From: an uncultured Gammaproteobacteria bacterium
Lineage (GTDB): Bacteria > Patescibacteriota > Patescibacteriia > Veblenbacterales > UBA10138
DNA: 64,000 nt
Direction: 5' to 3'
Assembly (NCBI GenBank): GCA_964348825.1
Contig: CAYGDX010000001.1
Coordinates: 239,463-303,462, forward strand
Position numbers and translations under genes: made by a program. This document shows positions 9,496 to 30,509 of the stretch, piece after piece (within the stretch, counting starts at the first letter, position 1; every line of letters begins with the position of its first letter). Below the pieces are notes generated by a model. That model did not search any database. It worked only from the letters and a program-made list of their open reading frames with translations, and was not told where the DNA came from.

Positions 9496-10572
9496 ATGAA
9501 AATTGTTATTTTAGCTGGTGGTGGTGGTACAAGGCTTTGGCCTTTGTCGCGAGTGGGCAGCCCCAAACAAGCCCAACCATTTTTAGACAGTCAAACATTA
9601 TTAGAACACACTTGGGCTAGGTTGCGTAATGGTTTTTCGGCATCTGATATTTTTGTCGCCACCACAGCCGCACAAGTTAAAATTATTAAGAAACAGTTGC
9701 CAGAGTTATTAAATGGCAATTTAATTATTGAGCCGATGGCGCGCAACACCGGACCAGCGGTAGCTCTGGCCACTTTGGTGATTAACCAATCGTATCCTGG
9801 TGAGGCAGTGGTAACGGTTAATAGTGATCATTATATTAAAAATGAAGACCAGTTTATAAAAGTTTTGAAAAATGGTGAAAAAGTAATAAGAAAAATATCT
9901 AATGAGTTGATTTTATTTGGCATCAAGCCATCTTACCCCGAAATTGGTTATGGTTATATTAAATTAAGTAAGTTAATTACGAAGTTGTCTAATCAATCAA
10001 TATATCAAGTAGGTGAGTTTGTCGAAAAGCCAAGAATAAACAAAGCCAAGCGATTGCTGGTAGGAGGTAGGCATTTATGGAATTCCGGTATGTTTTTGTT
10101 TTATCCCGAAATTTTATTTAAGCTACTTGAGGTTAATTGTCCTTTATTTTATAAAAATTTAAAGAAAATCAAATTGATTAAACAAAAAAATGGGGCATTT
10201 ACGGTATCGCCTAGTTCTTATTTAAAATTAGATAGTAAATCATTTGATTATTTACTAGTGGAGAAGTTAAAAAATTTAGCGGTAATGCCGATGAATATAG
10301 AATGGGCTGACGTTGGTCACTTCCGTACTATTTATGATATTTTGTCAGTCGGCAAGAATAGTAATGTAGTTAAGGGTAAAACTATTAGTTACAATTCGCG
10401 TGGTAACCTAATTTATTCTTTGTCTAATAAGTTAATCGCCACTGTGGGCGTTAATGATTTAGTAATTGTAGATACAGGTGATGCAATGTTGGTTTGTCAT
10501 AAAGATAAGACGCAGGAAGTTAAGCAGGTAGTGGAAGAGATAAAACGGCAAGGGCTTGGTAGGTATTTATAG
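9496..10572 (+). CDS. Sugar-1-phosphate nucleotidyltransferase (mannose-1-phosphate guanylyltransferase-like, lacking a cupin domain)
   Basis: N-terminal MKIVILAGGGGTRLWPLSR G-x-G-T-R-L nucleotidyltransferase motif. Length 358 aa. Confidence 0.8.
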   Translation: MKIVILAGGGGTRLWPLSRVGSPKQAQPFLDSQTLLEHTWARLRNGFSASDIFVATTAAQVKIIKKQLPELLNGNLIIEPMARNTGPAVALATLVINQSYPGEAVVTVNSDHYIKNEDQFIKVLKNGEKVIRKISNELILFGIKPSYPEIGYGYIKLSKLITKLSNQSIYQVGEFVEKPRINKAKRLLVGGRHLWNSGMFLFYPEILFKLLEVNCPLFYKNLKKIKLIKQKNGAFTVSPSSYLKLDSKSFDYLLVEKLKNLAVMPMNIEWADVGHFRTIYDILSVGKNSNVVKGKTISYNSRGNLIYSLSNKLIATVGVNDLVIVDTGDAMLVCHKDKTQEVKQVVEEIKRQGLGRYL

Positions 10573-10577
10573 TAGAT

Positions 10578-10778
10578 TGTCATTCCCGTGAATCCGCCAT
10601 CCGCCAACTGGTCGGAGGCGGAGGGAATCTAGAAACAAATCGTTTAAATCCTAAATCCGAATATTTAAATCCTAAATAAATCCCAATGACCAAAATCCAA
10701 AAAAGTTTAAAACATTTGAATTTAGAATTTTTGATTTATTTTGGATTTCGGATTTAGTGCTTAGGATTTAAAACAATT
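10578..10778. repeat. Composite intergenic repeat: TGTCATTCCCG-(inserted CCGCCATCCGCC..GGCGGAGG hairpin)-GGAATCTAGAA, then an AT-rich TTTGATTTATTTTGGATTTCGGATTTAGTGCTTAGGATTTAAAACAAT module ending at the mltG start
   Basis: Same family as 1003..1244, 43422..43483 and 51968..52147. Confidence 0.7.
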
Positions 10779-11798
10779 ATGTCTCATAAAATTATTTACA
10801 TATTAAAACGCCTAGTAATTATTTTAATACCTTTAGTTGCTATATTTACTCTTTGGCAATTTTTTTCGCCGGTAAGTAATTCAAATCAAGTAATAAATAT
10901 TCCAAATGGTGCTAGCGCTAAGCAAGTGGGGCAGATGCTCAAAGATAAAAATTTAATTCGTAGTGAATTTTGGTTTGAAGTGTGGGTGCGATTATCTGGC
11001 AACCAAAAGAATTTTGTAATGGGTGAGTATCTGATAGAACCAAAACAAAGTTTAGTAAATTTAATTTCTTATTTAACTGGTAGTGCTCAAGCGAACAACG
11101 AAGTAGTGGTAAAAATAATTGAAGGGTGGAGTTTGCGTGAGGTGGGGGAATACTTAAAAGCTAATAAAATTTTATCAGATGACTTCACTAAATTTATAAA
11201 GAATGAAAAATTATTTAATAATTTAGCGCCCCAAGAATTAAAAGAGTTGTTGGGTAATAAATTGCCAGCAACTTTAGAAGGATATTTATTTCCTGATACT
11301 TACCGTCTTTATAAAAATTCAAGCAGTGCTGAATTAATAAAAAAAATGTTGAATAATTTTGTTACCAAGTTTGATAAAAATTGGAAGGTTGAATTACAAA
11401 AAAATAATCACACCGTAAACGAGGCGGTAATTTTAGCCAGCATAGTGGAAAGGGAAGTGCGAGGTGATTCAGATAGAAGTATGGTAGCCGATATTTTTTG
11501 GCGGCGTTTAAAAATTGGCATGGCTTTGCAAGCTGACTCAACGGTTAATTATGTCACTGGTAAAAATACGCCACGCGCCTTACTCTCAGATTTAGAAATT
11601 AATTCACCTTACAACACTTACAAATGGCGCGGCCTGCCACCTGCTCCAATTAGCAACCCAAGTTCAAGTTCTATCAAGGCAACTGTGTATCCAAGTGCAA
11701 ATGATTTTTGGTATTTTTTAACCACCCCTGAGGGTAGGGTAATTTACTCTAAAACTTTTACTGAGCACGTTAAAGCTAAGAGGAAATATTACCTATAG
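10779..11798 (+). CDS. mltG: Endolytic murein transglycosylase MltG/YceG
   Basis: N-terminal TM helix and the YceG signature LEGYLFPDTY. Length 339 aa. Confidence 0.85.
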   Translation: MSHKIIYILKRLVIILIPLVAIFTLWQFFSPVSNSNQVINIPNGASAKQVGQMLKDKNLIRSEFWFEVWVRLSGNQKNFVMGEYLIEPKQSLVNLISYLTGSAQANNEVVVKIIEGWSLREVGEYLKANKILSDDFTKFIKNEKLFNNLAPQELKELLGNKLPATLEGYLFPDTYRLYKNSSSAELIKKMLNNFVTKFDKNWKVELQKNNHTVNEAVILASIVEREVRGDSDRSMVADIFWRRLKIGMALQADSTVNYVTGKNTPRALLSDLEINSPYNTYKWRGLPPAPISNPSSSSIKATVYPSANDFWYFLTTPEGRVIYSKTFTEHVKAKRKYYL

Positions 11799-11926
11799 TT
11801 TAGTTTGTAACATGCCAGATGACGGAGCAATTAGTTAATATTATTTATCAATCCGATAGTTATCCGATGTGGAGCCCATAGATTTTCCAATGATATTTCT
11901 CTGACACATTATGGGGGTGAACATCC

Positions 11927-11979
11927 CGCACCAGAGCACCAATTAGTGCAATCATAAATCAAATGGTGCTCTTGGTGCG
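11927..11979. other. Inverted repeat (15-bp arms CGCACCAGAGCACC / GGTGCTCTTGGTGCG, 24-nt spacer) downstream of mltG, with no T-tract
   Basis: Read directly. Lacks the U-run of an intrinsic terminator. Confidence 0.5.
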
Positions 11980-12055
11980 TGGATGGTATTGTATAGATTG
12001 AAATTTTAATAGTAGTTTTTTGTAAACTAGTGTCTATCCGATACTAGTTTTTTAG

Positions 12056-12084
12056 TTGACAGAATCGAAAATCTGTGCTAATAT
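12056..12084 (+). promoter_or_regulatory. Near-consensus sigma70-type promoter of the giant ORF (TTGACA-17 bp-TAATAT)
   Basis: TTGACA at 12056..12061, a 17-nt spacer, then TAATAT at 12079..12084. This lies about 75 nt upstream of the ATG at 12158. Confidence 0.7.
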
Positions 12085-12157
12085 ATAGATAACGATACAG
12101 TATCGGATAATATATCGGATACAAAATCGCCTAAAATAAACAAAAAAACAAAAATAT

Positions 12158-15100
12158 ATGAATCCAGTTGAACCTGGGAGTGTTGTAAAATCAACTTCCC
12201 AAGACAACTTAATAAGTACGCCTTCTGACCAAGAATTAATTTCTTTGGCTGAGGCCGCAAAGCTTACCCCATATAGTCAGGAGTATATTTCACTCTTGGC
12301 TAGACGGGGTAAGCTTTTAGCTTGGAAAAAAGGACGCAACTGGTGTACGACTCGCGAGGCGGTACAAAGTTATCTTGATAAACAAACTAAAGATGCTGCC
12401 GAAAAATTAGAACGTCATCAAGTTGTATTAGAATCATCTAAACCAGAAATCAAAGAAGTTAAACCCGGGATTATTTTGTCTCCAGAACAATTACTCCCAG
12501 TTGCAGAAATAAAAGTAGCAACTCCAATTGTTTCAGAAATTAAAGTTAGTCCCGAAATAAAACCAGAAGTGCCTGTGGTTATCCCAGTTGAAAAAGTTGC
12601 TACAGCAGAAAGTTCAGCGGTGCTTGCGGCGCGAGAAATTGCGAATGTGCTCGGAGAAACTTTGGGTGCTAGGTTTGATAGTATCAAACAAGAATTAAAA
12701 CAAGTGAACGAACAAGTAAGTAGATCAGTGCCGGCTTATGCTACACCAGTTCCGTCAGCGGTAGTTGTTAAACAAAATAAAATAAAATCGCACTGGTTTT
12801 ATTTGGCATTATTTTTAATTGCGGTGCCAGTAATTATTTTTAGTTTAACGCAAGGGTTGGCCGAAGATGCGCCAGGCAAACTTTTGGCGTCACTAAAAAA
12901 TGCTTGGACACTTGATGGCCACCGTGCTGGCACCGAAGCCAATGAAGTTTTAATTTTAAATGAAGCTGGAAATATTTCTATCAAAGGTCATATTGAAACT
13001 CAAGGTCAACTTCGCTCGTACGCGCGCGACGGCATCGCGCCAATCGTAGTTGACTCAACAACTAAAATTGAAAAATTAAATGCCGATGCAATTGATGGCT
13101 ATTCTAGTGAGCAATTTAATTTAGCCTTCATCACTAAGCAAGGTAATGTAACGAGTGATGATGTTTACTTAAAAGGTAAGGTAGAAGTTGGACAAATTTT
13201 AGAAGTGAAAGGAGCTACCAAACTTTTGGATGAGTTATTAGTTGGCGGAGGTTTAGGTGTGTGGGGTAAATCTTTTTTTCATAACGATGTGGCAGTGGAT
13301 GGTAAAGTTGATGTTAGTAAATCGCTGGCTGTAAAAAAAGATATTACCGCGGGTGGCAATGTAGTCGCTCAAAATAAAGTAGTGGCAGAAAAAGGTTTGG
13401 AAACTGGTGGTGATATAGTGACCAACAACAATGATATATTTTTGGGTAGCGGTACAATTATTAAAGAAGGTAAAGAATTAATTAAAAATTTAAATGCGGA
13501 GTATTGGAATGGGCAAGCCGCTTCAGATTTTAATTTGGATATGATTACCGACAACGGTGCGGTAACTGATAACCAAATTACTGTGGGTGGAATTAATTCT
13601 ACTGGTACATCTCGCTTCACTGGTCGCACTGAATTACTTGGTGAGACAGTAATTGGTAATTTAGAATCATTAACAGTAAACGGTAAAACTAATTTAAGAA
13701 ATACAGATGTTTCAGGAACTTTGGCGGTGGCTGGTCATGGTTTGTTTTCCAGTTTAGGTGTAGCGGGTAGTGCCGGCGTAATAAATTTATCTTCTAAAGA
13801 ATTTTCTACCACCAACGCTTCAATTGGTGGTAGCTCTAGTAATACTTTGGCGGTAGCGGCTTCATCAACTTTTTCTGGACCAATTAGTGCATCAAATAGT
13901 GTGAGTTTAACTTCAGCTACACCAGCTATTTCAACTAGCGCTGGTGATTTGGTTTTACAATCAAAAGGCGCAACGACTACCGCGAATGTACAAATTGGTG
14001 TGGGTGGCGATGGTTCAACTACGCCTGATCTTTTAGTGCTTGATGTAAAATCTGACGCTACTGATCCAACCGGTACCGATGGCGCAATGTACTACAATAC
14101 TTCAACTGATAAATTCCGTTGTTATGAAAATGCCGCTTGGACTGATTGTGTAGGTGCGGGTGGTGGCGGAGGCTCGACTTTGCAAGCCGCTTACGTTTCC
14201 GGTAATACAATAAGCACCACCACCGATGATGGTGATTTAGCTGTTACTTTGGCCGACACTACTACTGATCGAAATTTTACTGTGACAATTGCCGATGGTG
14301 CGACTGGCACGGTTTCTATTTCTCGAGCCGATGGTGCGGGCACAAGTGACCCATCTCAACTTTTGTTACTTGATAATTTAGATACTAATCGTTCTATAGC
14401 TGATGGTCTTAAAATTCAATCGGCCGCTGGTTTAATAGTTGACGGTATTGATGTATCAGATGCGGAACTTACCAATGCTCTTAATGTTGGTGATAATATT
14501 ATCGCCGGCACCACGGCTGAAATTAATTTTAGTAATTTTGATTTGGCAACTTCCGGTAATATTCAAGTGGCGGCGGGAGTGGGGCTTGATACTAATGGCG
14601 CCGGCAGTTTAACGCTCGGTGTTTCAAACGCCACCACGATTGATATCGCTGGTGGATCTTCTTCCACTGGCTGTACTATTACGAATGCGACTGGTAGTTT
14701 AGTATGTTCCGGAATAAATAGCACTCCAGTTGGGGCAACGTCACCAAGCACTGGTGCTTTTACAACTTTATCGTCAACTGGCGCTACTACTTTAGGAAAT
14801 AATTCTTCAACTGTTGCGGTTGATACTACATCTTGGGATATTTCTTCAGCCGGTGCAATTTCTGGTTTAACAGGATTAACTGTTGCTTCAGGTACGGTTT
14901 CATTGCCTAATGGACAAATCGATAATTCTGAATTAGCTAATTCAACTATTACTTTTGCTGGCGACACTGGTTCTTCAACTACCGCCTTAGGCGCAACTCG
15001 TACGATTGCTGGTGGTGGTGGTTTGACTTCAGCTGATAATAGTTCAGGAACTTTAACTTTAGCAGTTGGAGCTGGCACCGGTATTACTGTTAATGCTGAT

Positions 15101-18100
15101 GATTTAGCTGTTAATCAATCAACTGCTTTTGCTTGGACTGGTCAACAATCTTGGACTGCTACAGTTACAGCCACTGGCGCTTTAGGAGATTTTAATCCGA
15201 CTTTGGGCAATGATACAGATGTTGATACAGTAGCCGGCATTCAAATTGATGCTACTTCAGCTGCCACTGGCGACGCTGATAATTTTTATGGTTTAAATAT
15301 TACTTTGGCTTCAGCCGATGCGACAGTCAATGAGCGAGCAATTGAAATTGGTTCAGGTTGGGATTCAGCTTTATCTGTTGGCGGCTCTTCAATTATTAAT
15401 GGTTCAGGTGTTTTACAATCCGCTGGACTTTCTGGTACTTATTCAAATGCCTTAACTTTATCATCAGCTACTAATTCTATTACCGCTGGCACTTTAATTG
15501 TGGGAGCGGATACTGTAACTGATTTAACTGGTACAGGACTTCAAGTAGTGGCCAATGCTTTGCAAGCTACTTTGGGTACAGATATTACTTCATCTGAAAT
15601 TGCTGATGATAGTATTATGAATGTAGATATTAATTCAGCGGCCGCAATTGCTTTTTCCAAATTAGCCGCGCTGACCTCCGGCAACATTTTAGTGGGCAAC
15701 GGTTCTAATGTAGCAACTAGTGTAGCGATGAGCGGTGATGTGTTAATTTCCAATGCGGGTTTAACAACTATCCAACCTGATGCAGTGGTTTTGGCGACTG
15801 ATACTTCAGGCAGTTATATTGCTACCATTGCCGGAAGCACTCAAGTTGGCGTATCTGGTTCAGGTTTAGAAAATGCGGCAGTATCACTCTCTATTAATAA
15901 TGATTCAATTGGCGATACTCAATTAGCTTTTGATACAGGTCAAACTTTAACTACTACCGCTACGCCACAGTTTGCGCGACTTGGTGTGGGGGTAGCGGCC
16001 GACGCAACTAATATTTTAACTGCCACTTCTACTTCAACTACTGATTTAAGTAAGGTCTTAAATATTTCTCACACTGGCGCCATTACTGGCACTGGTTATG
16101 CTAGTTATTTTTCTAAAACTGGGGCATCCACCACTAATGTTGGTTTATATTCAACTGCTTCGGGTGCTAGTAATAATTACGCCGCGGTTTTTGAGGCGGG
16201 CAATGTTGGTATTGGTGATACAACTCCCAGTTCAAAATTAGAAATTGGCGATGGCACAGATTCATTACAAATTTCAACAGTTGGTGATTTAACTTTTGTG
16301 GATGCTGACGGCGCGGCTTCAATTACTGGTCCAGCCGGCGGCGCTTTAACTATCGCTAGTGGCGCTTCGCAGGCTTTAACTTTAACTGGTAACGCCGCTT
16401 CTATTTGGGATATTGGTGCTAATGTTTTATCTTTGCAAACTACTAACAATGGTGCGATTACTACTGGCACTGGACTTTTAACTTCGGGTGGTAATATAAC
16501 TTTTTCTGGAACTTCTGCGCGCACAATCACTGGACCAAATACTGGCGCCGCCGCGGCCTTAACTTTAACTACCACTGGCAATGGTTCAGGATTAAAATTA
16601 ACTAGCGCGGCTGGGGCCTCTGGCAATTCAGGCGCCATTACTTTGCAAAGTGGTGATACTGCTACTTCCGGAACTTCAGGTGCTATCACAATTGATTCTG
16701 GTGCTGGTGTAACTGCGAATGGTGTGATTACTATTGGTACGACCAACGCACCAACTACTACAATTGGTGGTTGTACTTTTGATCGTGTGGCTGGCAGTAT
16801 GAGTTGTTCGGGAGCAGTTGGTGGTGGTACTGGTACACAAGGTTATTGGAATCGTAGTGGTACAACTTTAAGTCCAGCTACTGCTGGTGATTCTGTTTCA
16901 ACTTCCGGTGCAATTTCTACCACTGGTACTGGCGCTGTTACTTCAGCTGGTACTTTAACTGCTTCAGCCGATTTCACTGCCAATGGTAATGTTCAATTGG
17001 GTGACAACACGGCTGATACTTTAACGATTTATCCAACCGCTTGGACTGCCACGCCAACTATTTCCGGACTTATCACAGCTACTTCTGGAATAACGTCTAA
17101 TGGTACGGCGACTTTTAATACTAACACTAATTTTACTCTAGCTGGTGCTGAAAATGTTTCTCTCACTAACACTACCGCTTCGGCTGATCAATTATCACTC
17201 GCTGTTTCCGGTGTGACCACTGATGCAGTGGATGGTTTAGCTATTGCCTTTACCCAAGCTGACGATGCTGATGCCGCTGATACTAATGCCGCACTTAATA
17301 TTAGTTTAACTTCTTCTTCCACTGACGCTGATACTTTGTATGGTATCAACTTGTCTAACATCACAGCTGGTACAGCAAATGAATACGCCATCAATATTGG
17401 TACAGGTTATGATCGAGGTATTAACTTAGGCGCTAACTCAATTGTTGGTTCAACTGGTATTATTGATTACACTAATTTTGATGTTGATGCTTCTGGCAAT
17501 GTTACTGTTGCCGGCGACTTGGCTGTTAATGGTGGCAATGTTAACTTTGGTGCTACCACTACAATTGGTGATGGTGGCGATGCTTTAACTATTGATTCTA
17601 ATGGAACTTTAACTATTAGTGACGCTACTGTTACTGGTTCCGGCGCTTTAACAGTTACACCAGCTGCGGCGTCCGCTTTGACTTTAGGTACCACTGGTGT
17701 GGGCAACACTACTTCTATTACTTTAGCCACTGACTCAACTGGTGATGCTGAAGTGGTTTTGCCAACTGGTTCGGTTTCTGGTACAGAAATTTTAGATGAC
17801 ACAGTTGTCCTCACTACTGACACAGCTGGTGATTATGTGGCTTCAATTACCGCTGGCGGTGGTTTAACCGGTACAACTTCAGGTGAAGGTTCAACTCCAA
17901 CTCTGGCGGTTGGTGCTGGCACTGGTATTACAGTTAATGCTGATGACGTGGCAATCAATCAAGACACTTCTTTTACTTGGACTAATTCTCACGCCTTTAC
18001 TCTAGCTGGTGCTGAAAATGTTTCTCTCACTAACACTACCGCTTCGGCTGATCAATTATCACTCGCTGTTTCCGGTGTGACCACTGATGCAGTGGATGGT

Positions 18101-21100
18101 TTAGCTATTGCCTTTACCCAAGCTGACGATGCTGATGCCGCTGATACTAATGCCGCACTTAATATTAGTTTAACTTCTTCTTCCACTGACGCTGATACTT
18201 TGTATGGTATCAACTTGTCTAACATCACAGCTGGTACAGCAAATGAATACGCCATCAATATTGGTACAGGTTATGATCGAGGTATTAACTTAGGCGCTAA
18301 CTCAATTGTTGGTTCAACTGGTATTATTGATTACACTAATTTTGATGTTGATGCTTCTGGCAATGTTGATGCCTTAGGTACTCTTACCGCAGGTTCCGCA
18401 AATGAAGTACTTACTTTATCAACTGGCAAAATTGATGCTGACGCTATTACTTTAGCTGCCTCTGGTACTACTGGTTCTACTTCAAGTCGTTCTGGACTTC
18501 AAACTAGTTCTGACGGTTTAACGCTTTTAATGGGTTGTGCTGATGGCCAACTTTTGGAGTGGACTGATGCTAGTGGTTGGGCTTGTGCGGCAGACGATAC
18601 TGGTAGTAGTGGAGCTAGCGTGGAAGAAGGTGACAGTGCGGCTGTGGCGGCTTTATCTGTTCTTGATTTCTTAGCCGCAGATTTTGTAGTATCAGAAAGT
18701 CCAGCCAATGAAGCTAATGTGAGTATTGATTATCCAAATTCTGGCATTACCCGCAAAGCTCAAGCTGAAACAATTTCTGGTGGTTGGACATTTAATACTG
18801 CCGCCACTACTTTCACCACCGCCATAAATGCTAATGGTGGTATTACCACTACCACCGCTGATCAAAATTTAGCTTTTTCAGCTAATGGCGGCGGCGATTT
18901 TGTTTTCAATGTTGATAGCGGTACTTTTGTTTCTATTACTGGAACAGCTGACGGTGAAAGCGCCTTAACCATTGCGGCTGGCAACCTTACTCTAACCGAT
19001 GGCGACCTAGCTGTTTCCGCTGGCGATTTCAACGTCAATCTCGACGACGGCGACACAGTTAATATCGATGGCGATGCCACACCAACCGCTGATTTATTAA
19101 AACTTGGCAATGGTGATACCTCCGCGACTGATGATGTTGATGCTTTGCAAATTACTTTTGCTACGAGTGGTGCCTCAGGTAATTTAATTGATCTTAGTCC
19201 AACTTTTGCGGATTCTGATGCTGGAAACTCAGCCGAAACTTGGAATGCTGTTAATGTTAATGCTTTTACCGTCACCCAAAATGATTCAGGTGGTGCCATC
19301 ACTGGTGTAGTCAATGGTTTTAATTTAGGCAACCTCACAGAATCTCCAACTGGTGATGATGCTATTACTTCTACGGCAATTAAACTTGGAACAGGTTGGG
19401 ATTATATTTTTGATACAGCTGGGTTTGATGTGTTAGGCGCTACTGGTGCTACCACTATTACTGGTAGTGGTGATGGTACTGACGCTTTAACTTTAACTGC
19501 TGGTGATATTTTAGTTACTAATGGTGACCTTGATTTATCAGGTGGCGATTTTAATGTTATTTTGGATGCGGGTGATGGCGTGAACATTACTAAAGGTGCC
19601 GCGCCAACTGTTGATGTATTTTCAATCAATGGCTCAACTTCAACTACTGATGGTGTGGACGGTTTGCAATTAACATTTGGTGTTTCCGCCGCTTCCGGCA
19701 ATGTGATTGATATTACGCCAAGTTATACTGATGCCACAGCTGGTGCTACTTCAGAGACATACAACATTATTGACGTCGATGCTTTTACCGCCACCCAAAA
19801 TGCCACTGGTGACACTGGTTTAATAAATGGTTTAGCGATTGGTGCCTTAACTCAAACTGAAACCGCTGGCGCTTTAACGGCTTATGCTTTAAATATTGGT
19901 TCTGGTTGGGATAGTGTTTTGCGGGTGAATGGTACGGAAGTTGTTGACGCTTCTGGTAACGTGCCGGTAGCTAGAATTAATGGCACCCTCTTTACAGTTC
20001 AAGGTGACAATGCCGCTGGTCGCGCTATAACTCAAGGCAATACTTTAACTATTGCTGGTGGTACTAATTTAACTAGTGTAGATGCCGATACAGATACTGT
20101 TACTATCAACCTTGATGATTCAATTACTCTAGCTGGTGACCTAACAGTGCAAGGTCAGAATGTTAATTTTGATAATGCCACTGATATTGATATTGATGAT
20201 AACACTGCTTCGTCATTTACCATTTCTGAGGGCGCTAATAATTATTTCTTAATTACCACTACTAATGATAGTGAAGTAGTAACTTTAAATTTACCAGCTG
20301 GCGGCGCTACTTCTTTAACTGGCAATCTTTTTACTTCTGACATTGTAAAAACTATTAATATTGGTACTGGCACGGCGGCTGACACTATTAATTTAGGTAC
20401 TGGTACTACTAATCCTGATGCTATAAATATTGGCACTACTGATACTGTTGCTCATGTGATAAGAATTGGTGATAATACTGGTGCCTCTTCTTCTGACATA
20501 GCTATTGCTGACGCACAATGGAGTATAACTACCGCCGGTCTCATCACCACGGCCGATAATTTAGCGGTGAATGGTGGAGATATAACAACAACTGCCACTG
20601 ATCCAAATATTTTTAATACTGGTACAATATCTACTATAGATATTGGCGCTACCGTAACTGGCAACATTACTTTTTCTAATGGCTCTGGTTCTAGTGGTTG
20701 TACTATTGATGGTTCTGGTAACTTAGCTTGTGCAGGTACTATCACTGGTTCAACTTCTGGCGCGCAAGGTTATTGGACTCGTACTAGCACAACATTATCT
20801 CCTACCAACGCCGGCGATAGTATTGATATGCCTTCCGGTACTGGTGTATTTACCCAAACTTACGCTCCAGCCGGCACTACCGTGGCCGCTACTGGTGCGA
20901 CTTTTATTCCAACGTTTGGTGTGCACGCGGATAATCAGACTTTGGTTGGTGTAGCAATTAATCCAGTTACGAATTCCAATGATGACACTGGTGATATTTT
21001 AAATGCTTTAAGTATTGGCACTATCAATGCCACCTTGGCAAGTGAGCGCGCCATTTATATTGGCACGAGTTATGATACTGATTTAGTGTTTGGCGATACT

Positions 21101-24100
21101 ACACCAGTCGTAACTTTTGGTGATGGCGGCAACTTAACTTTCACCGATGGCACTAATACTTTACTCACTTTAACTGACGGTGGAACAGTTGGGAATTTAA
21201 GTGTCAGTGGCGACGTTACTACTACTGGCGATGTGGCGATAAATGGTGGCAATCTAAATTTTGGTGCGGCGACTACGATTGGTGATGGCGGCGATACAAT
21301 TGCTTTTAGTTTGAAAGATAATTCAGCTGATGCTTTAGATGTTCAACAAAGTACTAACAATTACATAAACATCAACACTTCTGATGGTAATGAAAATATT
21401 GCTCTTTCTACTTTACGTCAAACTGGTGGTGATGCTATTTCATTACTTGGTGATTCAATTACGACCGGTACAGCAGTTGGTGTTTCAGCTGATGTTATAA
21501 CCACTGGTGTGGCTTTAGATATTTCTTCAATTTCAACTGTGGCTAGTTCAGCCGATTTAATTCAAGTTGATCACACTGCGACTTATGTTACAACAGTTGC
21601 TAATTCCGGTAATTTACTTGATTTATCACGCGCTTTAACTACTAACACTGGTGGCGCTTTAACTAATAGTGGCGCAGTTGCTACTATCACTTCCAATTGT
21701 ACTCAAACCGCCGGTACTTGTACTGATACCGCAAACATTTTATCACTTACTCAAAGTTATGCTTCAGCTTCGGGAGCAGTTATTAAAACTTCCAATGCTG
21801 GTACGGGTGTTGATATTGAATTAGATAATGCCGAAACAATTGATAACTCTGTCAACGGTACAATCAATCTTGGCACCACAACTTTTAAACTTACTGGCGG
21901 TACCACCATTGTGTCTGATCAAGCTACAGTGGCTTTACTTGATTCTACCACCACCACTATTAATTTTGGTTCAGCCGCCACGGCTGTTAACTTAGCTGAT
22001 GCTGCTATCACTGGCACAATTGATATTGGCGGTGTGACAGCTGATGGCGCTTCAACTATTAATATTGCGACCAACTCTACTTCATCTGATACTTTAGTCA
22101 TTGGCAACTCTAACGCTTCTACTTTAGTTACTTTAACAGGTGGTGATGATTGGTCCATTTCTAATACTGGTGTACTTACATTAGATGGTACAACTTTAGA
22201 CATCAACTCACTTGATTTTGTTGGCGCTGGTACTTTTACTTCAGGTGCGGCAACTAATTTAACTTTAACTCCCGGTACCACTGGTGACTTAGTATTTTCG
22301 ACTGACGCTGATACCACTGCTACATTTTCTGGTTCAGCTGATGGCACAGCTAATGTTATTTTAACAGCTGGTGATTTAACTCTCACTGATGGCGATCTGG
22401 CTGTATCAGCTGGTGATTTCAATGTGACTTTAGATGCTGGTGATGGTGTGACGATTACTAAGAATGCAGTGCCAACGGTTGATATATTTACCATTTCCAA
22501 TACTGGGCAAGGTATCACTACCACTGATGGTGTAGATTCACTGGCTTTAACTTACGTACAAGCTACTAATGCCGCGGCAGTAGCTGGCTCTGCTTTAGAT
22601 ATTTCTGTTACTCAATCCGGTGATGCTTCGGATACGATTCGTGGTATTAATATCAATAATATTACTGGCGGTTCTTCTACCGAAACTGCTTTATCAATTG
22701 GTTCAGGTTGGGACACTGACTTAGCTTTTGTTGATACTTCACCAACTGTAACTATTGGTGGTGGTGGCACTATCACTTTCACTGATGGTACCAACACATT
22801 GTTTAGTATTGCTGATGCCGGTACAACTGGAAATGCTACAACGACTGGCAACTTAGCAGTTAGTGGTGGCGATATTACCACTGGCGCCGCAACGTTTAAT
22901 TTCGTGGCTGGAACAACCACTCTTAATTTAGCCGGCGGTTCTGGTTCCACTGGTTGTACGGTTGATGGTTCAGGCAACCTTACTTGTACTGGTGCAATTA
23001 CGGGTTCAGCTTCTGGTGCGCAAGGTTATTGGACTAGAACTGACAATATTTTAACTGCCACCAATGCCAATGATATTTTATCATTACCTTCTAATGACGC
23101 TGATTCACCAGTACTTAATTTGGCTTCTTCCGCTATCACTGCCAATGGCACAGCTTCTTTAAATCAAGCGGTGACAGTTAGTTCATCCGCCGCCGGTGTA
23201 ACAGCTTATGGTTATAAATTAGCTCTAACTAATAATCCATCTACCAATGCCAATACTTTATATGGTGAATATATTTCTTTTACTGATGCTGGATCGCTAG
23301 CTAATACTGTAACTGGACTTTATGTTGATGCCACCACTGCTAATGCTTCGGATACTACTTATTCAGGGGTTTTTACCGGTGGTAATTTTGGTATTGGTGA
23401 TACAAGTCCAGCTGCTTTATTAACAGTTGGTAGTGGTGATTTATTTCAAGTAGATTCTTCTGGTAATGTTACGGCTGTTGATTTAGCCGTGAATGGTGGA
23501 GATATTACTGGTGCTACCACTATGAACGTCTTTAACACTTCAACCACTATTAATTTAGCCGATGCCGCTATTACTGGCACGATTGATATTGGTGGTGTAT
23601 CAACTAATGGTACAACTACAGTTAATATTGCAACTGAAGGCACCTCAGCTGATGTTATTACAATTGGCAATTCTAATGCTTCCTCAACTGTTGCGATTAC
23701 TGGCGGCAATGACTGGTCAATTGCTGCTAATGGTAATTTTGTTACCTTAGGAACTTTAACTGCTGGCTCAGGTGCGGAAGTTATTACTTTGTCAACCGGT
23801 AAAATTGATGCCGATGCTATTAGTTTAATGACTGCTACGAATGGTGTTGGCACTACTTCAACTGCCTCGGGTTTGGAAGTAGTGAGTGACAAATTATCAT
23901 TATTGCAAGGTTGTACTGATGCTTATATTTTAAAGTGGGAAGAAGATACAGATACTTGGGATTGTGCGGCAGATGCCACTGGCGGTGGAGCAGGTAGTTT
24001 GCAAGGCGCTTATGATGGTACAAATACTATTACGACTTCAGATAATCGTGACATTGCTTTTACTTTGGCCGATACCAACTTAACCAACACCACGCCAGAT

Positions 24101-27100
24101 GCTAATGATTCTGATTTTACTGTGACTACTGCTTCAGGTAGTACCAGTGAAACAAAAATTATTTTAGCTGATGGTGTTGGTACAGTATCGCCAACAGAAT
24201 TGTTATTAATTAATAACGCGGATACTTCAGGCAATACTTTGGCTAATGGTATTACCGTTAGTTCCGCTGGTTCAGCCATCACCACAGGTATTAATTTAAC
24301 TGATGCGGATTTAGTAAATGCAATTAGTGTAGATGCCAATACTATTTTAGGCACCACTGGTGATATAAATTTTACAAATTTTGATGTTACAGGTTCAAGT
24401 GGTGATGTTGTAACCGGAGGTGATGTGGCAGTGAATGGTGGAGACATTACTGGCGCCACCACTATGAATGTTTTTAATACTTCAACCCTCATTAATTTAG
24501 CCGATTCCGCAATTACTGGCACGATTGATATTGGTGGGGTAACGGCCGATGGTGCAACTACCATTAATGTGGCCACTCATTCAACTTCAGCCGATGTAAT
24601 AACAATAGGTAATTCCAATGCTTCAACTACAGTGGCGATTACTGGTGGTGATGATTGGGCAATGGCCGCCACTGGTGTACTCACTATGTCAGCTTCCGCC
24701 GCCGCTACCACTGCGATAGTTATTACTGATACTGATTATACTAACGCTTTATCTATTGGTGATAATATTATTACCGGTACAACCTATAGTTTAGTTGGCA
24801 CATCGGCAACTATTGATTTTTCCGAATTTGATGTAGCCGCCGCTACCGGCGCTATTACTATCAACGATGATGGGGATGCTGGAAATATTTCTATTGAAGG
24901 CACGGTGCTGGATATTAACTCACTTGATTTTGTCGGCGCGGGCACTTTAACTTCCGCAGCGACTACGAATTTAACTTTTACTCCTGGTACCACTGGTGAT
25001 TTAGTATTTTCCACCGATGCTGACACCACCGCCACCTTTAGTGGTTCAGCTGAAGGTACAGCTAATGTTATTTTAACGGCTGGTGATTTAACTTTGACCG
25101 ATGGTGATTTAACATTATCAGGTGGTGAAATAGCTGCGACTTCAGATGATGCCACTGGTACAAATTTTAATTTTACTACTGGCGCATTAACTTCTGGTAC
25201 AGGTTTGGCAGTGGCCACCACTGGTGCTGTGGCTACGGCTTACACTGGCGATGTGATTAATGGTAGTTTTACACAGACCGTAACATCGGGTACGCCATTT
25301 AACAATACTGGCAATGTACTTGACATTTCTCGTGCTTTAACTATTAATCAAGCAGCCGGTGATACAGTCACACAAAGTGGTGCCCTAGTTAGTTTTACTT
25401 CAACTCTAGCGGCCGGTGGTGCGGGAGGTACTTTAGCTGATTCGTCAAATATTTTAGCTTTAGCTCAAAGTTGTGGCGGCGGTTTCTCTTGTACCGGCGC
25501 AGTATTAGGTATTACCAATGCTGGTACAGGTAGCGCTATTGCAATAGGTGCTATGTCAGCAAGTAGCGCCACTACCTCAGTCGCTAGTATTGATATTGGT
25601 GCTATTACTACAACCAACATAACTACTTCTACTGGTTTGAAAATTGGAGCTTTATCTGGTACGGGTACTACTGGTTATGGAATTGATATAGCTGGTATTA
25701 CAAAAACTGGTACTACAGCTACTGCTATTAACATTGGCGCTATGTCAGGCGCTGCCACTACTAACACTGGTATAGCAATTGGCAATCTATCAGCCGGTAC
25801 CACTTCTAATGGTATTACTATCGGAACTAATTCTTCAGCAACTTCAAAAGGTATCACTATCGGAGCAATGACTGGCGCCACTACTAACACTGGTATTGAT
25901 ATTGGCAACATTAGTACTGGTACCACTTCCAAAGGTATTAACATTGGGACTTTAGCTGGCATCAATGGCGGTACTGTCACTGGCATAGCTATCAGCACTA
26001 TGTCTGGTGCCGCTACCACCACTTCGGCTACTAGTATTGATATTGGTGCTATTACTACAACCAACATAACTACTTCTACTGGTTTGAAAATTGGAGCTTT
26101 ATCTGGTACGGGTACTACTGGTTATGGAATTGATATAGCTGGTATTACAAAAACTGGTACTACAGCTACTGCTATTAACATTGGCGCTATGTCAGGCGCT
26201 GCGACAACAAATACTGGGATCGCTATTGGAAATTTATCAGCTGGTACAACTTCCAAAGGTATTACTATTGGTACTAATTCTTCAGTTACCGCCACCGGTC
26301 TAGATATTGGTGCTTTATCTGGCACCACAGCTAATATTGGGGTGAAGGTGGGAGCTATTTCAGGAGCTAGTGGCACAGGAACAGGTCTTGATATTGGAGC
26401 TTTTACTAATACTGGCGCTACTCAATATGGAGTCAATATTGGAGCTTTTTCAGGAACACATGCGGCAGGAGGAGGAACCACTGCTGGAATTAATATTGGG
26501 AATATTTCTTCAGCAGGAACTACTTCATCAAATTATGGAATTCAATTAGGAACAATGACTGGTGGTACCACTGCAAATTATCAAATTAGTACTGGTATCT
26601 TAACTTCAGCTACCACCACAACTAATGCTCAAATTAATTTAGGTGGGGTGGTCACAACCGGTGGTACTACTAATTATGGTATCAATGTGGGGGCACTCTC
26701 TGGCACTGGTACCACTAACTATGGAATAAATGTTGCTGCATTGACATCTGTTGGAACTACAAATTATGGGTTAAATGTTGGTGGCGCGACTGGAGCGGCT
26801 ACTACTAATTATGGCGTGTTTGTTGGTGCAGTAACTGGAGCTTCCACCAATATTAGTTTGGCCTTTGCCAAAGAAAATGCACATACTATTAAAGTTTTAG
26901 ATAGTACAACTGCTGATACTGTAGGCGGTGCCTTAAGTATTACTGCTGGCGCCGCGGCAAATAGTACATCTACCGCTCGAGCTGGTGGGGCTATTACCCT
27001 AACAGCTGGAGCTGGTGCGGCAAATAGTAGCGCTACTACTGGTCAAACAGCCGGTGCGGGTGGAGCACTTAATATTAATACTGGAAATGGTGGTAATGAA

Positions 27101-29863: not shown

Positions 29864-29902
29864 ATTTTTGTTACAATTTTTATATTTATATACAATTTTA
29901 AT

Positions 29903-29944
29903 TCCGTCGTCACAAATGTCCGGCCGGACATTTGTGACGACGGA
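29903..29944. promoter_or_regulatory. Perfect 42-bp palindrome TCCGTCGTCACAAATGTCCGG|CCGGACATTTGTGACGACGGA between the giant ORF stop and the PaaX-like gene start
   Basis: Read directly. There is no loop and no T-tract. It may be an operator or a bidirectional terminator. Confidence 0.6.
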
Positions 29945-29966: not shown

Positions 29967-30509
29967 ATGATTAAAAAGAATGAATCAGTAACTCACTTCG
30001 TGTTAAAGTCGTTGGCTGTGGTTGGCAGTATCACAGTAGATTTTTATACTTGGACGAATGATTTACGACGTTGGCAGTACCATTATGAAAGTAATCGTGA
30101 GTGGAAAAATTATTTAAAATATATTAAGGATAAAAATAGATCACGTAAATTATTACATAATTTAAAAAGAAGAAATTATATTAAGATTAATAAAATAGGT
30201 AACAGGGTTATAATTAGTTTAACTGATAAAGGTAAAATGGCAGCACTTAAAAATAGTTTATTACAAACTAAAAAGATGTCAGATAAATATACTGTAGTAA
30301 TTTTTGATATTCCCGAAACAGCACGCTTAGCCAGAGTATTATTTAGAAAATTATTAAAAGAAGCTAGCTTTAAAAAATTACAACAAAGCGTGTGGATATC
30401 AAATTGTGATGCCCATGATATCATGATTAAATTTATTAAAGAGCAAAAAATAGATAAATGGGTTAACGTATTTTATGCTACCGATTTGTTCAAGAAGTTG
30501 AATTTGTAA
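29967..30509 (+). CDS. PaaX-family-like small regulator (N-terminal wHTH-like region plus a C-terminal Cas2-fold/PaaX_C-like segment)
   Basis: The C-terminal YTVVIFDIPETARLARVLFRKLLKEASFKKLQQSVWIS fits the Cas2/PaaX_C pattern (YDIPE...R..L.K.L...GF..LQ.SVW). Length 180 aa, Lys-rich. Confidence 0.5.
   Translation: MIKKNESVTHFVLKSLAVVGSITVDFYTWTNDLRRWQYHYESNREWKNYLKYIKDKNRSRKLLHNLKRRNYIKINKIGNRVIISLTDKGKMAALKNSLLQTKKMSDKYTVVIFDIPETARLARVLFRKLLKEASFKKLQQSVWISNCDAHDIMIKFIKEQKIDKWVNVFYATDLFKKLNL

What the first reader, a model, noticed from the sequence alone, without database searches (positions are those of the whole stretch)
12158..12850. Excisionase-type HTH fused N-terminally, on the cytoplasmic side, to the giant surface protein
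Residues about 25-72 (LISLAEAAKLTPYSQEYISLLARRGKLLAWKKGRNWCTTREAVQSYL) align position by position with the HTH_17/excisionase DNA-binding consensus (L.v.EaA.lLgvS..TIyrli.rG.lpa.kiGrrwri.r.dl..fl). The only TM helix follows about 140 residues later. This places a DNA-binding domain in the cytoplasm, tethered to a 5.6-k-residue extracellular fibre. That topology is reminiscent of ToxR/CadC-like membrane one-component regulators. It suggests the fibre could transduce contact or tension to transcription, or autoregulate.
Basis: partly seen in the sequence, partly recalled or inferred. Interest (0 to 1): 0.65.

Follow-up and report, generated by a model that had tools for sequence, protein, structure and literature searches.

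The report
Giant surface protein with self-regulating HTH
A 5,901-residue surface protein of an ultra-small (Patescibacteria) bacterium starts with a real DNA-binding domain on the inside of the membrane. Its probable binding sites sit on the gene's own promoter, so the protein most likely controls its own production.

Summary
Residues 27-76 of the 5,901-aa ORF (12158-29863) form an excisionase/MerR-type winged helix (HTH_17 E 9e-6, just under Pfam's cut-off). The AlphaFold model has pLDDT 93, and its best structural matches are TraN, BldC, Xis, RdfS and RacA. One TM helix follows at aa 213-231, and charge bias places the N-terminus in the cytoplasm.

The module is a family trait. HTH, linker, single TM and a conserved juxtamembrane domain occur together in more than 100 Patescibacteria protein clusters, some reaching 7,920 aa.

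The new result is an operator. This includes unrelated Fic-HTH genes in archaea and Chloroflexota. Density is about 100-fold above flanking DNA (P about 5e-53).

Seven genes with a changed recognition helix (NYLNVLIHR) carry a different repeat instead (7/7 versus 0/32).

In the window the array covers about +1 to +30 of a TTGACA-17-TAATAT promoter.

Best reading: a membrane-tethered, self-regulating transcription factor built into a giant surface fibre, probably a repressor. Contact or tension sensing is untested. It is not a ToxR/CadC family member. I file it as a new variant of the known transmembrane-regulator class.

The parts
12158..29863 (+). Giant ORF, 5,901 aa. Predicted type II (N-in, C-out) single-pass membrane protein with a Thr/Gly/Ala/Ser-rich ectodomain of about 5,670 aa.
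   Evidence: Its C-terminal 260 aa are homologous to the C-terminus of P0013, the giant protein of the syntenic locus L033.
12236..12385 (+). Excisionase/MerR-type winged helix-turn-helix (aa 27-76). The recognition helix is SQEYISLLARRG and the wing is AWKKGRNW.
   Evidence: HTH_17 and TIGR01764 matches just below their cut-offs. 54 of 65 relatives hit HTH_17. AF2 pLDDT 92.8. Foldseek top hits are TraN, BldC, Xis, RdfS and RacA. Residues Y39, Y43, L47, R49, W62 and Y72 are nearly invariant and K57 is invariant across 65 family members.
12440..12607 (+). Low-complexity Pro/Glu/Lys/Val-rich spacer (about aa 95-150). It is variable or absent in orthologues and is read as a flexible tether.
   Evidence: alignment A1. 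The HTH-to-TM distance is 46-303 aa across the family, median 138.
12605..12727 (+). Conserved amphipathic helix (about aa 150-190; LAAREIANVLGETLGARFDSIKQELKQV). A possible cytoplasmic coiled coil.
   Evidence: conserved in A1/A2. Predicted helix 150-190 in a low-confidence model.
12794..12850 (+). The single transmembrane helix (aa 213-231), with invariant Pro224.
12887..13087 (+). Juxtamembrane extracellular domain (aa 244-310; KNAWTLDGH..NEVLILNEAGNISIKGHIETQGQLRSYARDG.APIVVDS). It is the best-conserved segment among the close orthologues (alignment A2) and is not in Pfam.
12056..12084 (+). Sigma-70-type promoter: TTGACA, 17 bp, TG-extended TAATAT.
   Evidence: The same arrangement is conserved in 10 orthologous loci.
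12092..12122 (+). Proximal operator array aCGATAcagTATCGGATAataTATCGGATAc. Half-sites run GATA-N3-TATC-N1-GATA-N3-TATC-N1-GATA with a 12-bp period. It lies at about +1 to +30 of the predicted start site and 37-66 bp before the ATG.
12024..12050 (.). Upstream site TATCCGATA (12035-12043) inside an 11-bp-arm palindrome, just 5' of the -35 box.
11848..11869 (.). Distal pair of sites, ATCCGATA (11851-11858) and TATCCGAT (11861-11868), about 300 bp upstream of the ATG.

Best explanation
The first ~76 residues of the giant protein form a functional excisionase/MerR-type winged-helix DNA-binding domain. The domain stays in the cytoplasm. A spacer of about 137 residues and one TM helix tie it to a surface fibre of about 5,670 residues. 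The domain recognises TATC-S-GATA sites arrayed on and around the gene's own promoter. Because the proximal array covers the predicted transcription start (about +1 to +30), occupancy most likely represses transcription. Each finished or nascent protein adds one cytoplasmic HTH, so the cell would 'count' how much of this very costly protein it has made and shut the promoter accordingly.

Shown here by computation: the fold, the topology bias, the family-wide architecture, the co-occurrence of HTH type and motif, and their co-variation.

Inferred: physical binding, the sign of regulation, and whether the HTH acts while membrane-tethered or after release.
For: (1) Fold. HTH_17 and TIGR01764 are the only profile hits. 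AF2 gives pLDDT 92.8. All top structural neighbours are dsDNA-binding excisionase/MerR wHTH proteins.

(2) Topology. There is a single TM and a positive-inside bias, both in the window and in 96 of 108 relatives.

(3) Conservation. A profile search of 1.84 billion representatives gives 108 hits at E<=1e-30. Of 159 proteins analysed, 108 have the order HTH-TM-juxtamembrane domain. Sizes reach 7,920, 6,605, 6,480, 6,452, 5,746 and 5,120 aa.

(4) Operator. The 8-mer TATCGGAT/ATCCGATA lies within -250..+100 of the frame opening in 31 of 33 loci that encode this HTH type. Density is 4.9 per kb there against 0.048 per kb elsewhere in the same loci (binomial P about 5e-53). In the 64-kb window the only cluster is at this promoter.

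(5) The only thing shared by the giant genes (Patescibacteria) and the Fic-HTH genes (Micrarchaeota, Bathyarchaeia, Chloroflexota) is the HTH, which is C-terminal in Fic. Both carry the motif at their promoters. In the Micrarchaeota Fic loci it flanks a TTTAAATA TATA-like box.

(6) Co-variation. Seven loci whose helix reads [SP][QR][NA]YLNVLIHR have TATCTTATC/TATCATGATA/GATAAGATA arrays and never TATCGGAT. The main class shows the reverse (31/32 and 0/32 against 0/7 and 7/7; Fisher 5e-7 and 6.5e-8). A third helix type (YKVTYLSLLVQR, L028) has neither motif.

(7) Position. In 11 loci of the window's clade the array follows TTGACA-17-TAnnnT by about 7 bp.

(8) Precedents. BldC is a monomeric MerR/Xis-like wHTH that binds arrays of direct repeats cooperatively (PMC5859096). 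Single-pass transmembrane transcription regulators are widespread (PMC10269533).
Against: There is no experimental binding data.

The window's HTH_17 and TIGR01764 scores fall just below the curated cut-offs. Foldseek E-values are only about 0.02, as expected for a 60-residue domain. A PDB sequence-profile search found nothing.

The loci are not phylogenetically independent, so the P values overstate the evidence.

In other Patescibacteria clades a small MerR-like gene lies near the HTH gene (L023, L025, L029, L030, L031, L036); it is divergently oriented and adjacent in the four loci with gene calls (L029-L031, L036). A TrpR-like gene does so in L032, L034 and L035. These could be the true motif binders there.

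The proximal array is in the transcribed leader, so an RNA-level role is not formally excluded for this clade.

The sign of regulation is inferred from position only.
Confidence: 0.65

Rival explanations
1. The TATC-S-GATA array is bound by a different, soluble regulator. The N-terminal HTH has another job, for example general nucleoid or chromosome anchoring to the membrane as with RacA.
For: Small MerR-like genes (71-82 aa) lie next to HTH-TM giant genes in six loci of other clades. TrpR-like genes lie next to the variant-class genes. RacA-DNA is among the structural neighbours.
Against: No such small regulator gene lies in the 64-kb window, in L001-L010, or in the archaeal and Chloroflexota Fic loci, yet the motif is present there. 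The motif tracks the recognition-helix type of the fused HTH. Outside promoters of HTH genes the motif is at about chance density (0.048 per kb), unlike dispersed anchoring sites.
Confidence: 0.12
2. The N-terminal ~235 residues act as a giant cleavable leader. Signal peptidase cuts after the TM (a candidate small-residue site is G-L-A|E-D at aa 233-237) and frees the fibre. The HTH-TM stub, or an HTH released from it by intramembrane proteolysis, then reports completed secretion events to the promoter.
For: The GLA[DE]D motif directly after the TM is conserved in close orthologues, and Pro224 inside the TM is invariant. A signal peptidase I (Peptidase_S26) gene lies immediately upstream of the 7,920-aa relative in L031. 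This reading is compatible with all the operator evidence.
Against: The hydrophobic stretch is about 19 residues, more like an anchor than a cleavable h-region. The motif after the TM is not conserved in distant relatives. No cleavage-site predictor was available. The S26 adjacency is a single locus.
Confidence: 0.15
3. Binding of the tethered HTH to its own promoter serves localisation rather than repression. It holds the 17.7-kb gene at the membrane (transertion), so that the huge nascent chain is inserted next to existing copies. It could even activate transcription.
For: Membrane-bound regulators VtrA/VtrC and VtrB capture their target locus at the membrane and localise expression and assembly (PMC9977878). 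Sites exist both upstream of the -35 box (12035, 11851/11861) and downstream of the -10 box, which is compatible with looping or capture.
Against: The best-conserved sites overlap the predicted start site, a classic repressor position. The soluble Fic-HTH proteins use the same promoter-site arrangement without any membrane.
Confidence: 0.12
4. One reading: the fibre transmits contact or tension across the membrane and changes HTH activity, as in a ToxR/CadC-like one-component sensor.
For: The architecture is that of a single-pass transmembrane transcription regulator (PMC10269533). A conserved juxtamembrane domain and a conserved cytoplasmic helix flank the TM.
Against: Nothing in the sequence data speaks to signal transmission. 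The same HTH and operator work in soluble Fic proteins. The long, variable, low-complexity spacer between TM and HTH (46-303 aa) is poorly suited to conformational coupling.
Confidence: 0.08
5. The HTH is a protein-interaction or structural module that does not bind DNA, as the RodZ HTH binds MreB. The upstream repeats are unrelated.
For: RodZ shows that an N-terminal HTH before a single TM need not bind DNA (established knowledge, not tested here).
Against: The HTH is of HTH_17 type, not XRE type. The motif-HTH co-occurrence and co-variation would then be coincidental. The conserved basic residues of the helix and wing (R49, K57, R60) are typical of DNA contact.
Confidence: 0.04

Closest known systems
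Transmembrane transcription regulators (TTRs; ToxR, CadC, TcpP, VtrA/VtrB) as surveyed by Demey et al. 2023 (PMC10269533)
   Same: A cytoplasmic N-terminal DNA-binding domain, one TM helix and an extracytoplasmic C-terminal part in a single polypeptide. DNA is presumably bound from the membrane.
   Different: The DNA-binding domain is excisionase/HTH_17 type, not the OmpR-type winged helix of ToxR/CadC. The extracytoplasmic part is a structural fibre of about 5,670 residues rather than a small sensor domain. The inferred target is the gene's own promoter. The paper does not mention HTH_17, Patescibacteria or giant proteins.
BldC of Streptomyces (MerR/Xis-like monomeric wHTH; PMC5859096; PDB 6ama, 6amk)
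   Same: The same small beta-alpha-alpha-beta-beta-alpha fold (rmsd 1.5 A over 49 residues). Its targets are arrays of short repeats at promoters.
   Different: BldC is a free 68-residue protein that regulates other genes. Here the domain is the N-terminus of a membrane-anchored giant and appears to be dedicated to its own gene.
Excisionases / recombination directionality factors (Pukovnik Xis 4j2n, RdfS 8dgl; TIGR01764)
   Same: Fold and profile similarity. Both bind repeated sites.
   Different: No integrase domain in the ten neighbouring genes scanned; the locus lies among housekeeping genes. Attachment sites and mobile-element borders were not searched for. The domain is fused to a surface protein.
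TraN of Enterococcus plasmid pIP501 (4p0z), with tandem excisionase-like domains
   Same: It is the best structural match. Its tandem arrangement parallels the 2x and 3x HTH paralogues of this family.
   Different: TraN is a soluble cytoplasmic type IV secretion accessory protein.
RacA of Bacillus subtilis (5i44)
   Same: A MerR-like wHTH that links DNA to a membrane-proximal site.
   Different: RacA is soluble. It reaches the pole through DivIVA and binds many dispersed sites near the origin. Here the sites cluster at one promoter.
Fic-HTH proteins of Micrarchaeota, Bathyarchaeia and Chloroflexota (P0005-P0011; L011-L027)
   Same: The HTH is 52-67% identical and carries the same LTPYSQEYLSLLARRG helix. 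The same TATC-S-GATA sites lie at their own promoters.
   Different: The HTH is C-terminal, the proteins are soluble and about 310 aa long, and the partner domain is Fic (PF02661).

Membership tests
Pfam HTH_17 (PF12728) / TIGR01764 excisionase-type DNA-binding domain | Profile score at or above the curated cut-off | tested here: inconclusive
   The window scores 22.7-26.3 bits against a cut-off of 27 (E 9e-6 to 1.2e-4) and covers profile positions 2-50 of 51. TIGR01764 scores 25.5 against 28.8. 54 of 65 family relatives match HTH_17 at E<=0.01, the best at 2.9e-9, and no other family is hit.
Pfam HTH_17 (PF12728) / TIGR01764 excisionase-type DNA-binding domain | Winged-helix fold beta1-alpha1-turn-alpha2-beta-hairpin wing-alpha3 | tested here: met
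   The AF2 model has pLDDT 92.8 with elements E9-11, H12-17, H23-31, E37-40, E43-47 and H48-62. The Foldseek top hits are TraN, BldC, Xis and RdfS.
Pfam HTH_17 (PF12728) / TIGR01764 excisionase-type DNA-binding domain | Sequence-specific dsDNA binding | not testable with these tools
   The support is indirect only: promoter-motif co-occurrence (31 of 33 loci) and helix/motif co-variation.
Excisionase / recombination directionality factor (functional class) | Partner integrase and attachment sites in a mobile element | tested here: not met
   The ten neighbours scanned include YceG, GDP-mannose pyrophosphorylase, H+-PPase, a PaaX-like protein and ribosomal protein L10, and none has an integrase domain. 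Attachment sites were not searched for. Synteny is conserved in L033.
ToxR/CadC family | OmpR-type winged-helix DNA-binding domain (Trans_reg_C) | tested here: not met
   Pfam scans of aa 1-250 and of the whole protein return only HTH_17.
Transmembrane transcription regulators (TTR class as defined in PMC10269533: a DNA-binding domain plus at least one TM region) | A DNA-binding domain and a TM region in one polypeptide | tested here: met
   HTH at aa 27-76 and TM at aa 213-231.
Transmembrane transcription regulators (TTR class as defined in PMC10269533: a DNA-binding domain plus at least one TM region) | Regulates transcription while membrane-bound, in response to an extracytoplasmic signal | not testable with these tools
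   No data. Release by proteolysis cannot be excluded.
RodZ-like morphogenetic proteins | XRE-type HTH (HTH_25 or similar) before a single TM, binding MreB | tested here: not met
   No XRE-type profile is hit. The domain is HTH_17 type. MreB binding is not testable.
Patescibacteria 'HTH-TM-juxtamembrane domain' large or giant surface proteins (unnamed family delineated here) | N-terminal SQEYLSLLAR-type HTH, a single TM 46-303 aa later, then the GHIETxGQxRS...APIVVDS domain | tested here: met
   The window protein has all three in order, as do 108 of 159 analysed relatives.

The most novel reading that the evidence does not exclude
The HTH works co-translationally and in cis. It is the first part of the protein to leave the ribosome, while the remaining ~17.5 kb of the gene is still being transcribed. 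It binds the operator 40-300 bp from its own start codon. When the TM segment inserts, the gene becomes tied to the membrane insertion site. The promoter would then stay shut and the locus stay membrane-tethered until the fibre is completed or diluted. This would be a built-in 'one at a time' gate and transertion device for giant proteins. More broadly, the HTH plus TATC-S-GATA operator would be a portable self-regulation cassette that has moved between bacterial giant adhesins and archaeal Fic proteins.
Probability: 0.12. Interest if true: 0.85.

Novelty: new variant of a known kind. Interest (0 to 1): 0.62.

Why it matters
Patescibacteria (CPR) are mostly uncultured, and their regulators and giant surface proteins, the likely tools for attaching to hosts, are almost entirely uncharacterised. 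This work yields a concrete and cheaply testable regulator-operator pair. The protein fragment is aa 1-90. The DNA is a 30-bp duplex. A natural specificity control is the NYLNVLIHR helix with its GATAAGATA sites.

The work also shows that a whole family of the largest CPR proteins carries its own transcription-factor domain. This extends the transmembrane-regulator concept to structural giants that appear to meter their own synthesis.

The same HTH-operator pair in archaeal Fic proteins points to a mobile autoregulatory cassette shared across domains of life.

Tried and rejected
A first AF2 run on aa 1-311 with only 5 sequences gave pLDDT 45 and was not used for fold claims.

PDB sequence searches gave nothing meaningful. 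The single sequence hit only spurious BLIP-II repeats, and the 65-sequence profile gave no hit at E<=1.

A tblastn of the HTH against the whole window found no second copy.

An Rfam scan of 11700-12300 gave only sub-threshold chance hits, so no known leader RNA is present.

Pfam finds no domain in the remaining 5,800 residues.

Literature searches for HTH_17 plus transmembrane, and for CPR giant proteins, found no description of this architecture.

The look-up of P0112 (3x HTH) found no contig.

An alternative downstream start that would remove the HTH was considered. The only in-frame candidate, TTG at Leu30, would cut the domain, and the in-frame HTH is conserved in more than 100 relatives, so this was rejected.

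An RNA-level role for the repeats was considered and judged unlikely. The sites occur in both orientations and, in the Micrarchaeota Fic loci, flank a TATA-like box upstream of the gene.
Full report
**1. What is in the sequence**

The window (38% GC) carries a 17,706-nt ORF at 12158-29863 on the + strand. ATG 12158 is the first start codon after the in-frame stop. Its neighbours are housekeeping genes. Upstream lie an H+-pyrophosphatase, a GDP-mannose pyrophosphorylase-like gene and YceG/MltG. Downstream lie a PaaX-like gene and ribosomal protein L10. The closest relatives are all from Patescibacteria metagenome-assembled genomes. The same order, ManC-YceG-giant-...-L10-L12, recurs in L033.

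The protein has 5,901 residues, and 51% of them are Thr, Gly, Ala or Ser. Pfam recognises nothing in it except the N-terminal HTH.

**2.

- **Profile matches.** Residues 28-76 match HTH_17 end to end (profile positions 2-50 of 51). The E-value is 9e-6 to 1.2e-4 and the score 22.7-26.3 bits, against a cut-off of 27. They also match the TIGR01764 excisionase domain at 25.5 bits against a cut-off of 28.8.
- **Family support.** These scores are just sub-threshold, but 54 of 65 homologous segments match HTH_17 and no other family, the best at 2.9e-9.
- **Fold.** With that 65-sequence alignment, AlphaFold2 gives a confident model (pLDDT 92.8) with the excisionase/MerR topology beta-alpha-alpha-beta-beta-alpha.
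- **Structural neighbours.** The best Foldseek matches in the PDB are TraN, BldC-DNA complexes, mycobacteriophage Pukovnik Xis, RdfS and RacA-DNA, followed by MerR-family N-domains. Probability is about 1.0, TM 0.64-0.68 and rmsd 1.5 A over 49 residues. E-values are only about 0.02, as expected for a 60-residue query.
- **Membrane segment.** The only strongly hydrophobic segment of the whole protein is aa 213-231.
- **Topology.** The N-terminus has no signal-like stretch. The flank before the TM is Lys-rich and the flank after it is acidic. Across 108 relatives the N-side flank averages 3.5 K+R against 1.8 on the C-side, and its net charge is higher in 96 of 108. An N-in, C-out orientation is therefore well supported, though not proven.

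**3. It is a family trait, not a one-off fusion**

The word-indexed search with aa 1-260 found only four close homologues, all cut by contig ends. It also found, unexpectedly, Fic-domain proteins whose C-terminal HTH carries the same LSLAEAAKLTPYSQEYLSLLARRG sequence.

A profile of aa 1-311 searched against 1.84 billion cluster representatives gave 2,971 hits at E<=1e-3 and 108 at E<=1e-30. I analysed 159 proteins: the listed hits, the proteins and the window protein.

- 108 have the same order: an N-terminal HTH, a linker of 46-303 aa, one TM helix, then a highly conserved juxtamembrane domain (GHIETxGQxRS...APIVVDS).
- Lengths reach 7,920, 6,605, 6,480, 6,452, 5,746 and 5,120 aa.
- A second group has two or three tandem copies of the HTH before a TM helix and other ectodomains.

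Some giant relatives end in a Peptidase_S74 (tail-fibre chaperone) domain or contain LVIVD repeats. This supports the 'fibre' description. The window protein shares its C-terminal domain with P0013.

**4. The operator**

The 360-bp region upstream of the ORF holds a TG-extended sigma-70-type promoter, TTGACA-17-TAATAT, at 12056-12084. Directly after it comes aCGATAcagTATCGGATAataTATCGGATAc at 12092-12122. A further TATCCGATA at 12035 lies inside a palindrome just 5' of the -35 box. Two more copies lie at 11851 and 11861. TATC-S-GATA is a 9-bp near-palindrome. Half-sites alternate with a 12-bp period.

- **Conservation in orthologues.** In ten orthologous loci the same promoter-plus-array arrangement is conserved, although the proteins are only 44-86% identical and the surrounding non-coding DNA is not alignable.
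- **Distant giants.** Distant giants have the motif too: L029, L030 and L036 exactly, and L031 and L033 with one mismatch per 9-mer. It is often arranged as inverted pairs.
- **Fic-HTH genes.** The Fic-HTH genes of Micrarchaeota, Bathyarchaeia and Chloroflexota also carry it. In the Micrarchaeota loci the sites flank a TTTAAATA TATA-like box.
- **Statistics.** The 8-mer is found within -250..+100 of the frame opening in 31 of 33 loci. Density there is 4.9 per kb, against 0.048 per kb (about chance) in the remaining 310 kb. The binomial P is about 5e-53, with the caveat that the loci are related.
- **Specificity within the window.** In the 64-kb window the only other copy is a single 8-mer inside a coding region.

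**5. Co-variation**

Three family members with a different recognition helix (S[QR][NA]YLNVLIHR in P0106 and P0053; IPRNYLNVLIHR in P0090) lack TATCGGATA. They instead have arrays of TATCTTATC, TATCATGATA and GATAAGATA, or CCATATCATGATATGG. These again lie directly after a TTGACA promoter.

A targeted metagenome scan for that helix returned four more loci. All have the variant repeats and none has TATCGGAT; in three (L038-L040) they directly follow a TTGACA promoter.

| Helix class | Loci with TATCGGAT | Loci with variant motif |
|---|---|---|
| Main (SQEYLSLLAR type) | 31 of 32 | 0 of 32 |
| Variant (NYLNVLIHR type) | 0 of 7 | 7 of 7 |

Fisher's exact test gives 5e-7 and 6.5e-8. A further helix type (YKVTYLSLLVQR, L028) has neither motif and shows TGATAAT repeats instead.

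The HTH is the only element common to giant genes and Fic genes, and the DNA motif tracks its helix. The simplest explanation is therefore that the HTH binds the motif, which amounts to autoregulation.

**6. Mechanism**

Most likely the HTH, held in the cytoplasm by the TM helix through a long and partly low-complexity spacer, binds the array. In the window's clade the array overlaps the predicted transcription start. Occupancy there would block initiation or promoter clearance, which gives negative feedback on a protein that costs 5,901 residues per copy.

There are precedents for both halves of the model. BldC is a monomeric MerR/Xis-like wHTH that multimerises on repeat arrays (PMC5859096). 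Transmembrane transcription regulators are widespread, and most are single-pass (PMC10269533).

Three points remain unresolved:

- **The sign of regulation.** A positive 'gene capture' or transertion role, as with VtrA/VtrB (PMC9977878), is possible.
- **Tethered or released.** A small-residue GLA|ED site follows the TM in close orthologues. A signal peptidase gene abuts the 7,920-aa relative.
- **Other regulators.** Small MerR-like or TrpR-like neighbours seen in other clades may share the sites.

Nothing supports or refutes sensing of contact or tension.

**7. Comparison with known systems and novelty**

By the working definition of Demey et al. (a DNA-binding domain plus a TM region) this is a transmembrane transcription regulator. 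It is not a ToxR/CadC family member, because the DNA-binding domain is of the wrong type. It is not an excisionase in function, because no integrase or mobile element is present. It is not RodZ-like.

I found no description of this architecture in the searchable literature. The source databases call the proteins hypothetical.

Four things are new:

- an HTH_17-type transmembrane regulator is the standard N-terminus of a large family of Patescibacteria giant surface proteins;
- its operator can be read from comparative genomics;
- helix and operator co-vary;
- the same HTH-operator pair occurs on archaeal and Chloroflexota Fic proteins.

I rate this as a new variant of a known kind. Interest is moderate to high, because it gives a directly testable regulator-operator pair in an organism group with almost no characterised regulation.

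Noticed in passing
window 29901-29942: A perfect 42-bp palindrome (TCCGTCGTCACAAATGTCCGG|CCGGACATTTGTGACGACGGA) lies between the giant gene's stop codon and a TATAAT box in front of the PaaX-like gene at 29967. It has no T-run and is unrelated to the TATC-S-GATA motif. It may be the operator of the PaaX-like regulator or an unusual terminator.
   Followed up: partly
L011-L027 (Micrarchaeota, Bathyarchaeia, Chloroflexota contigs); P0005-P0011: Fic-domain proteins of about 310 aa carry a C-terminal HTH that is 52-67% identical to the giant protein's N-terminal HTH. The same TATC-S-GATA sites lie at their promoters. In the Micrarchaeota loci the sites flank a TTTAAATA box. This suggests a self-regulation cassette shared across bacteria and archaea.
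   Followed up: partly
L029 2285-2509(-), L030 1276-1491(-), L031 835-1083(-), L036 754-966(-); also L023, L025: A conserved small MerR-type gene (71-82 aa; LTPLTVRNWDxKGKL) lies divergently upstream of HTH-TM giant genes in several Patescibacteria clades. It is absent from the window and from its close orthologues' flanks. It may be a second regulator of the giant genes.
   Followed up: partly
L032 1444-1752, L034 647-961, L035 923-1228; L034 1281-1493, L038, L039: Variant-helix family members are preceded by a TrpR/YerC-like gene (101-104 aa). A small single-TM ORF of about 70 aa often lies between the repeat-bearing promoter and the HTH gene, which suggests a small operon.
   Followed up: no
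P0091, P0096, P0112-P0158: Many paralogues have two or three tandem copies of the same HTH before a single TM helix, with ectodomains that lack the juxtamembrane domain. One of them has 4,310 aa (P0118, L036). The tandem copies echo the repeated operator sites.
   Followed up: partly
window 12887-13087 (aa 244-310): The extracellular juxtamembrane segment (KNAWTLDGH...NEVLILNEAGNISIKGHIETQGQLRSYARDGxAPIVVDSxTKIxNLNAD) is nearly invariant among the close orthologues and better conserved than the HTH. It has no Pfam model and its function is unknown. An NLNA-type motif recurs later in the fibre (NLNAEYWNG at about aa 455).
   Followed up: no
L031 1114-1647; L029 and L031 giant genes: A signal peptidase I (Peptidase_S26) gene lies directly upstream of the 7,920-aa relative. 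The relatives P0023 and P0101 end in a Peptidase_S74 (tail-fibre intramolecular chaperone) domain, and P0027 and P0101 contain LVIVD repeats. The window protein shows none of these by Pfam.
   Followed up: no
window 11933-11972: A 12-bp-arm hairpin (AGAGCACCAATT...AAATGGTGCTCT, 16-nt loop) lies in the yceG-giant intergenic region, between the distal and proximal motif sites. There is no Rfam match. It may be the yceG terminator or part of the regulatory region.
   Followed up: partly
window 9496-11798 and L033 1-1796: Conserved synteny, ManC-like nucleotidyltransferase then YceG/MltG then the giant gene and later L10/L12, is shared between the window and a 3,593-aa orthologue. The giant gene therefore sits in a stable chromosomal position next to cell-wall genes.
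   Followed up: partly
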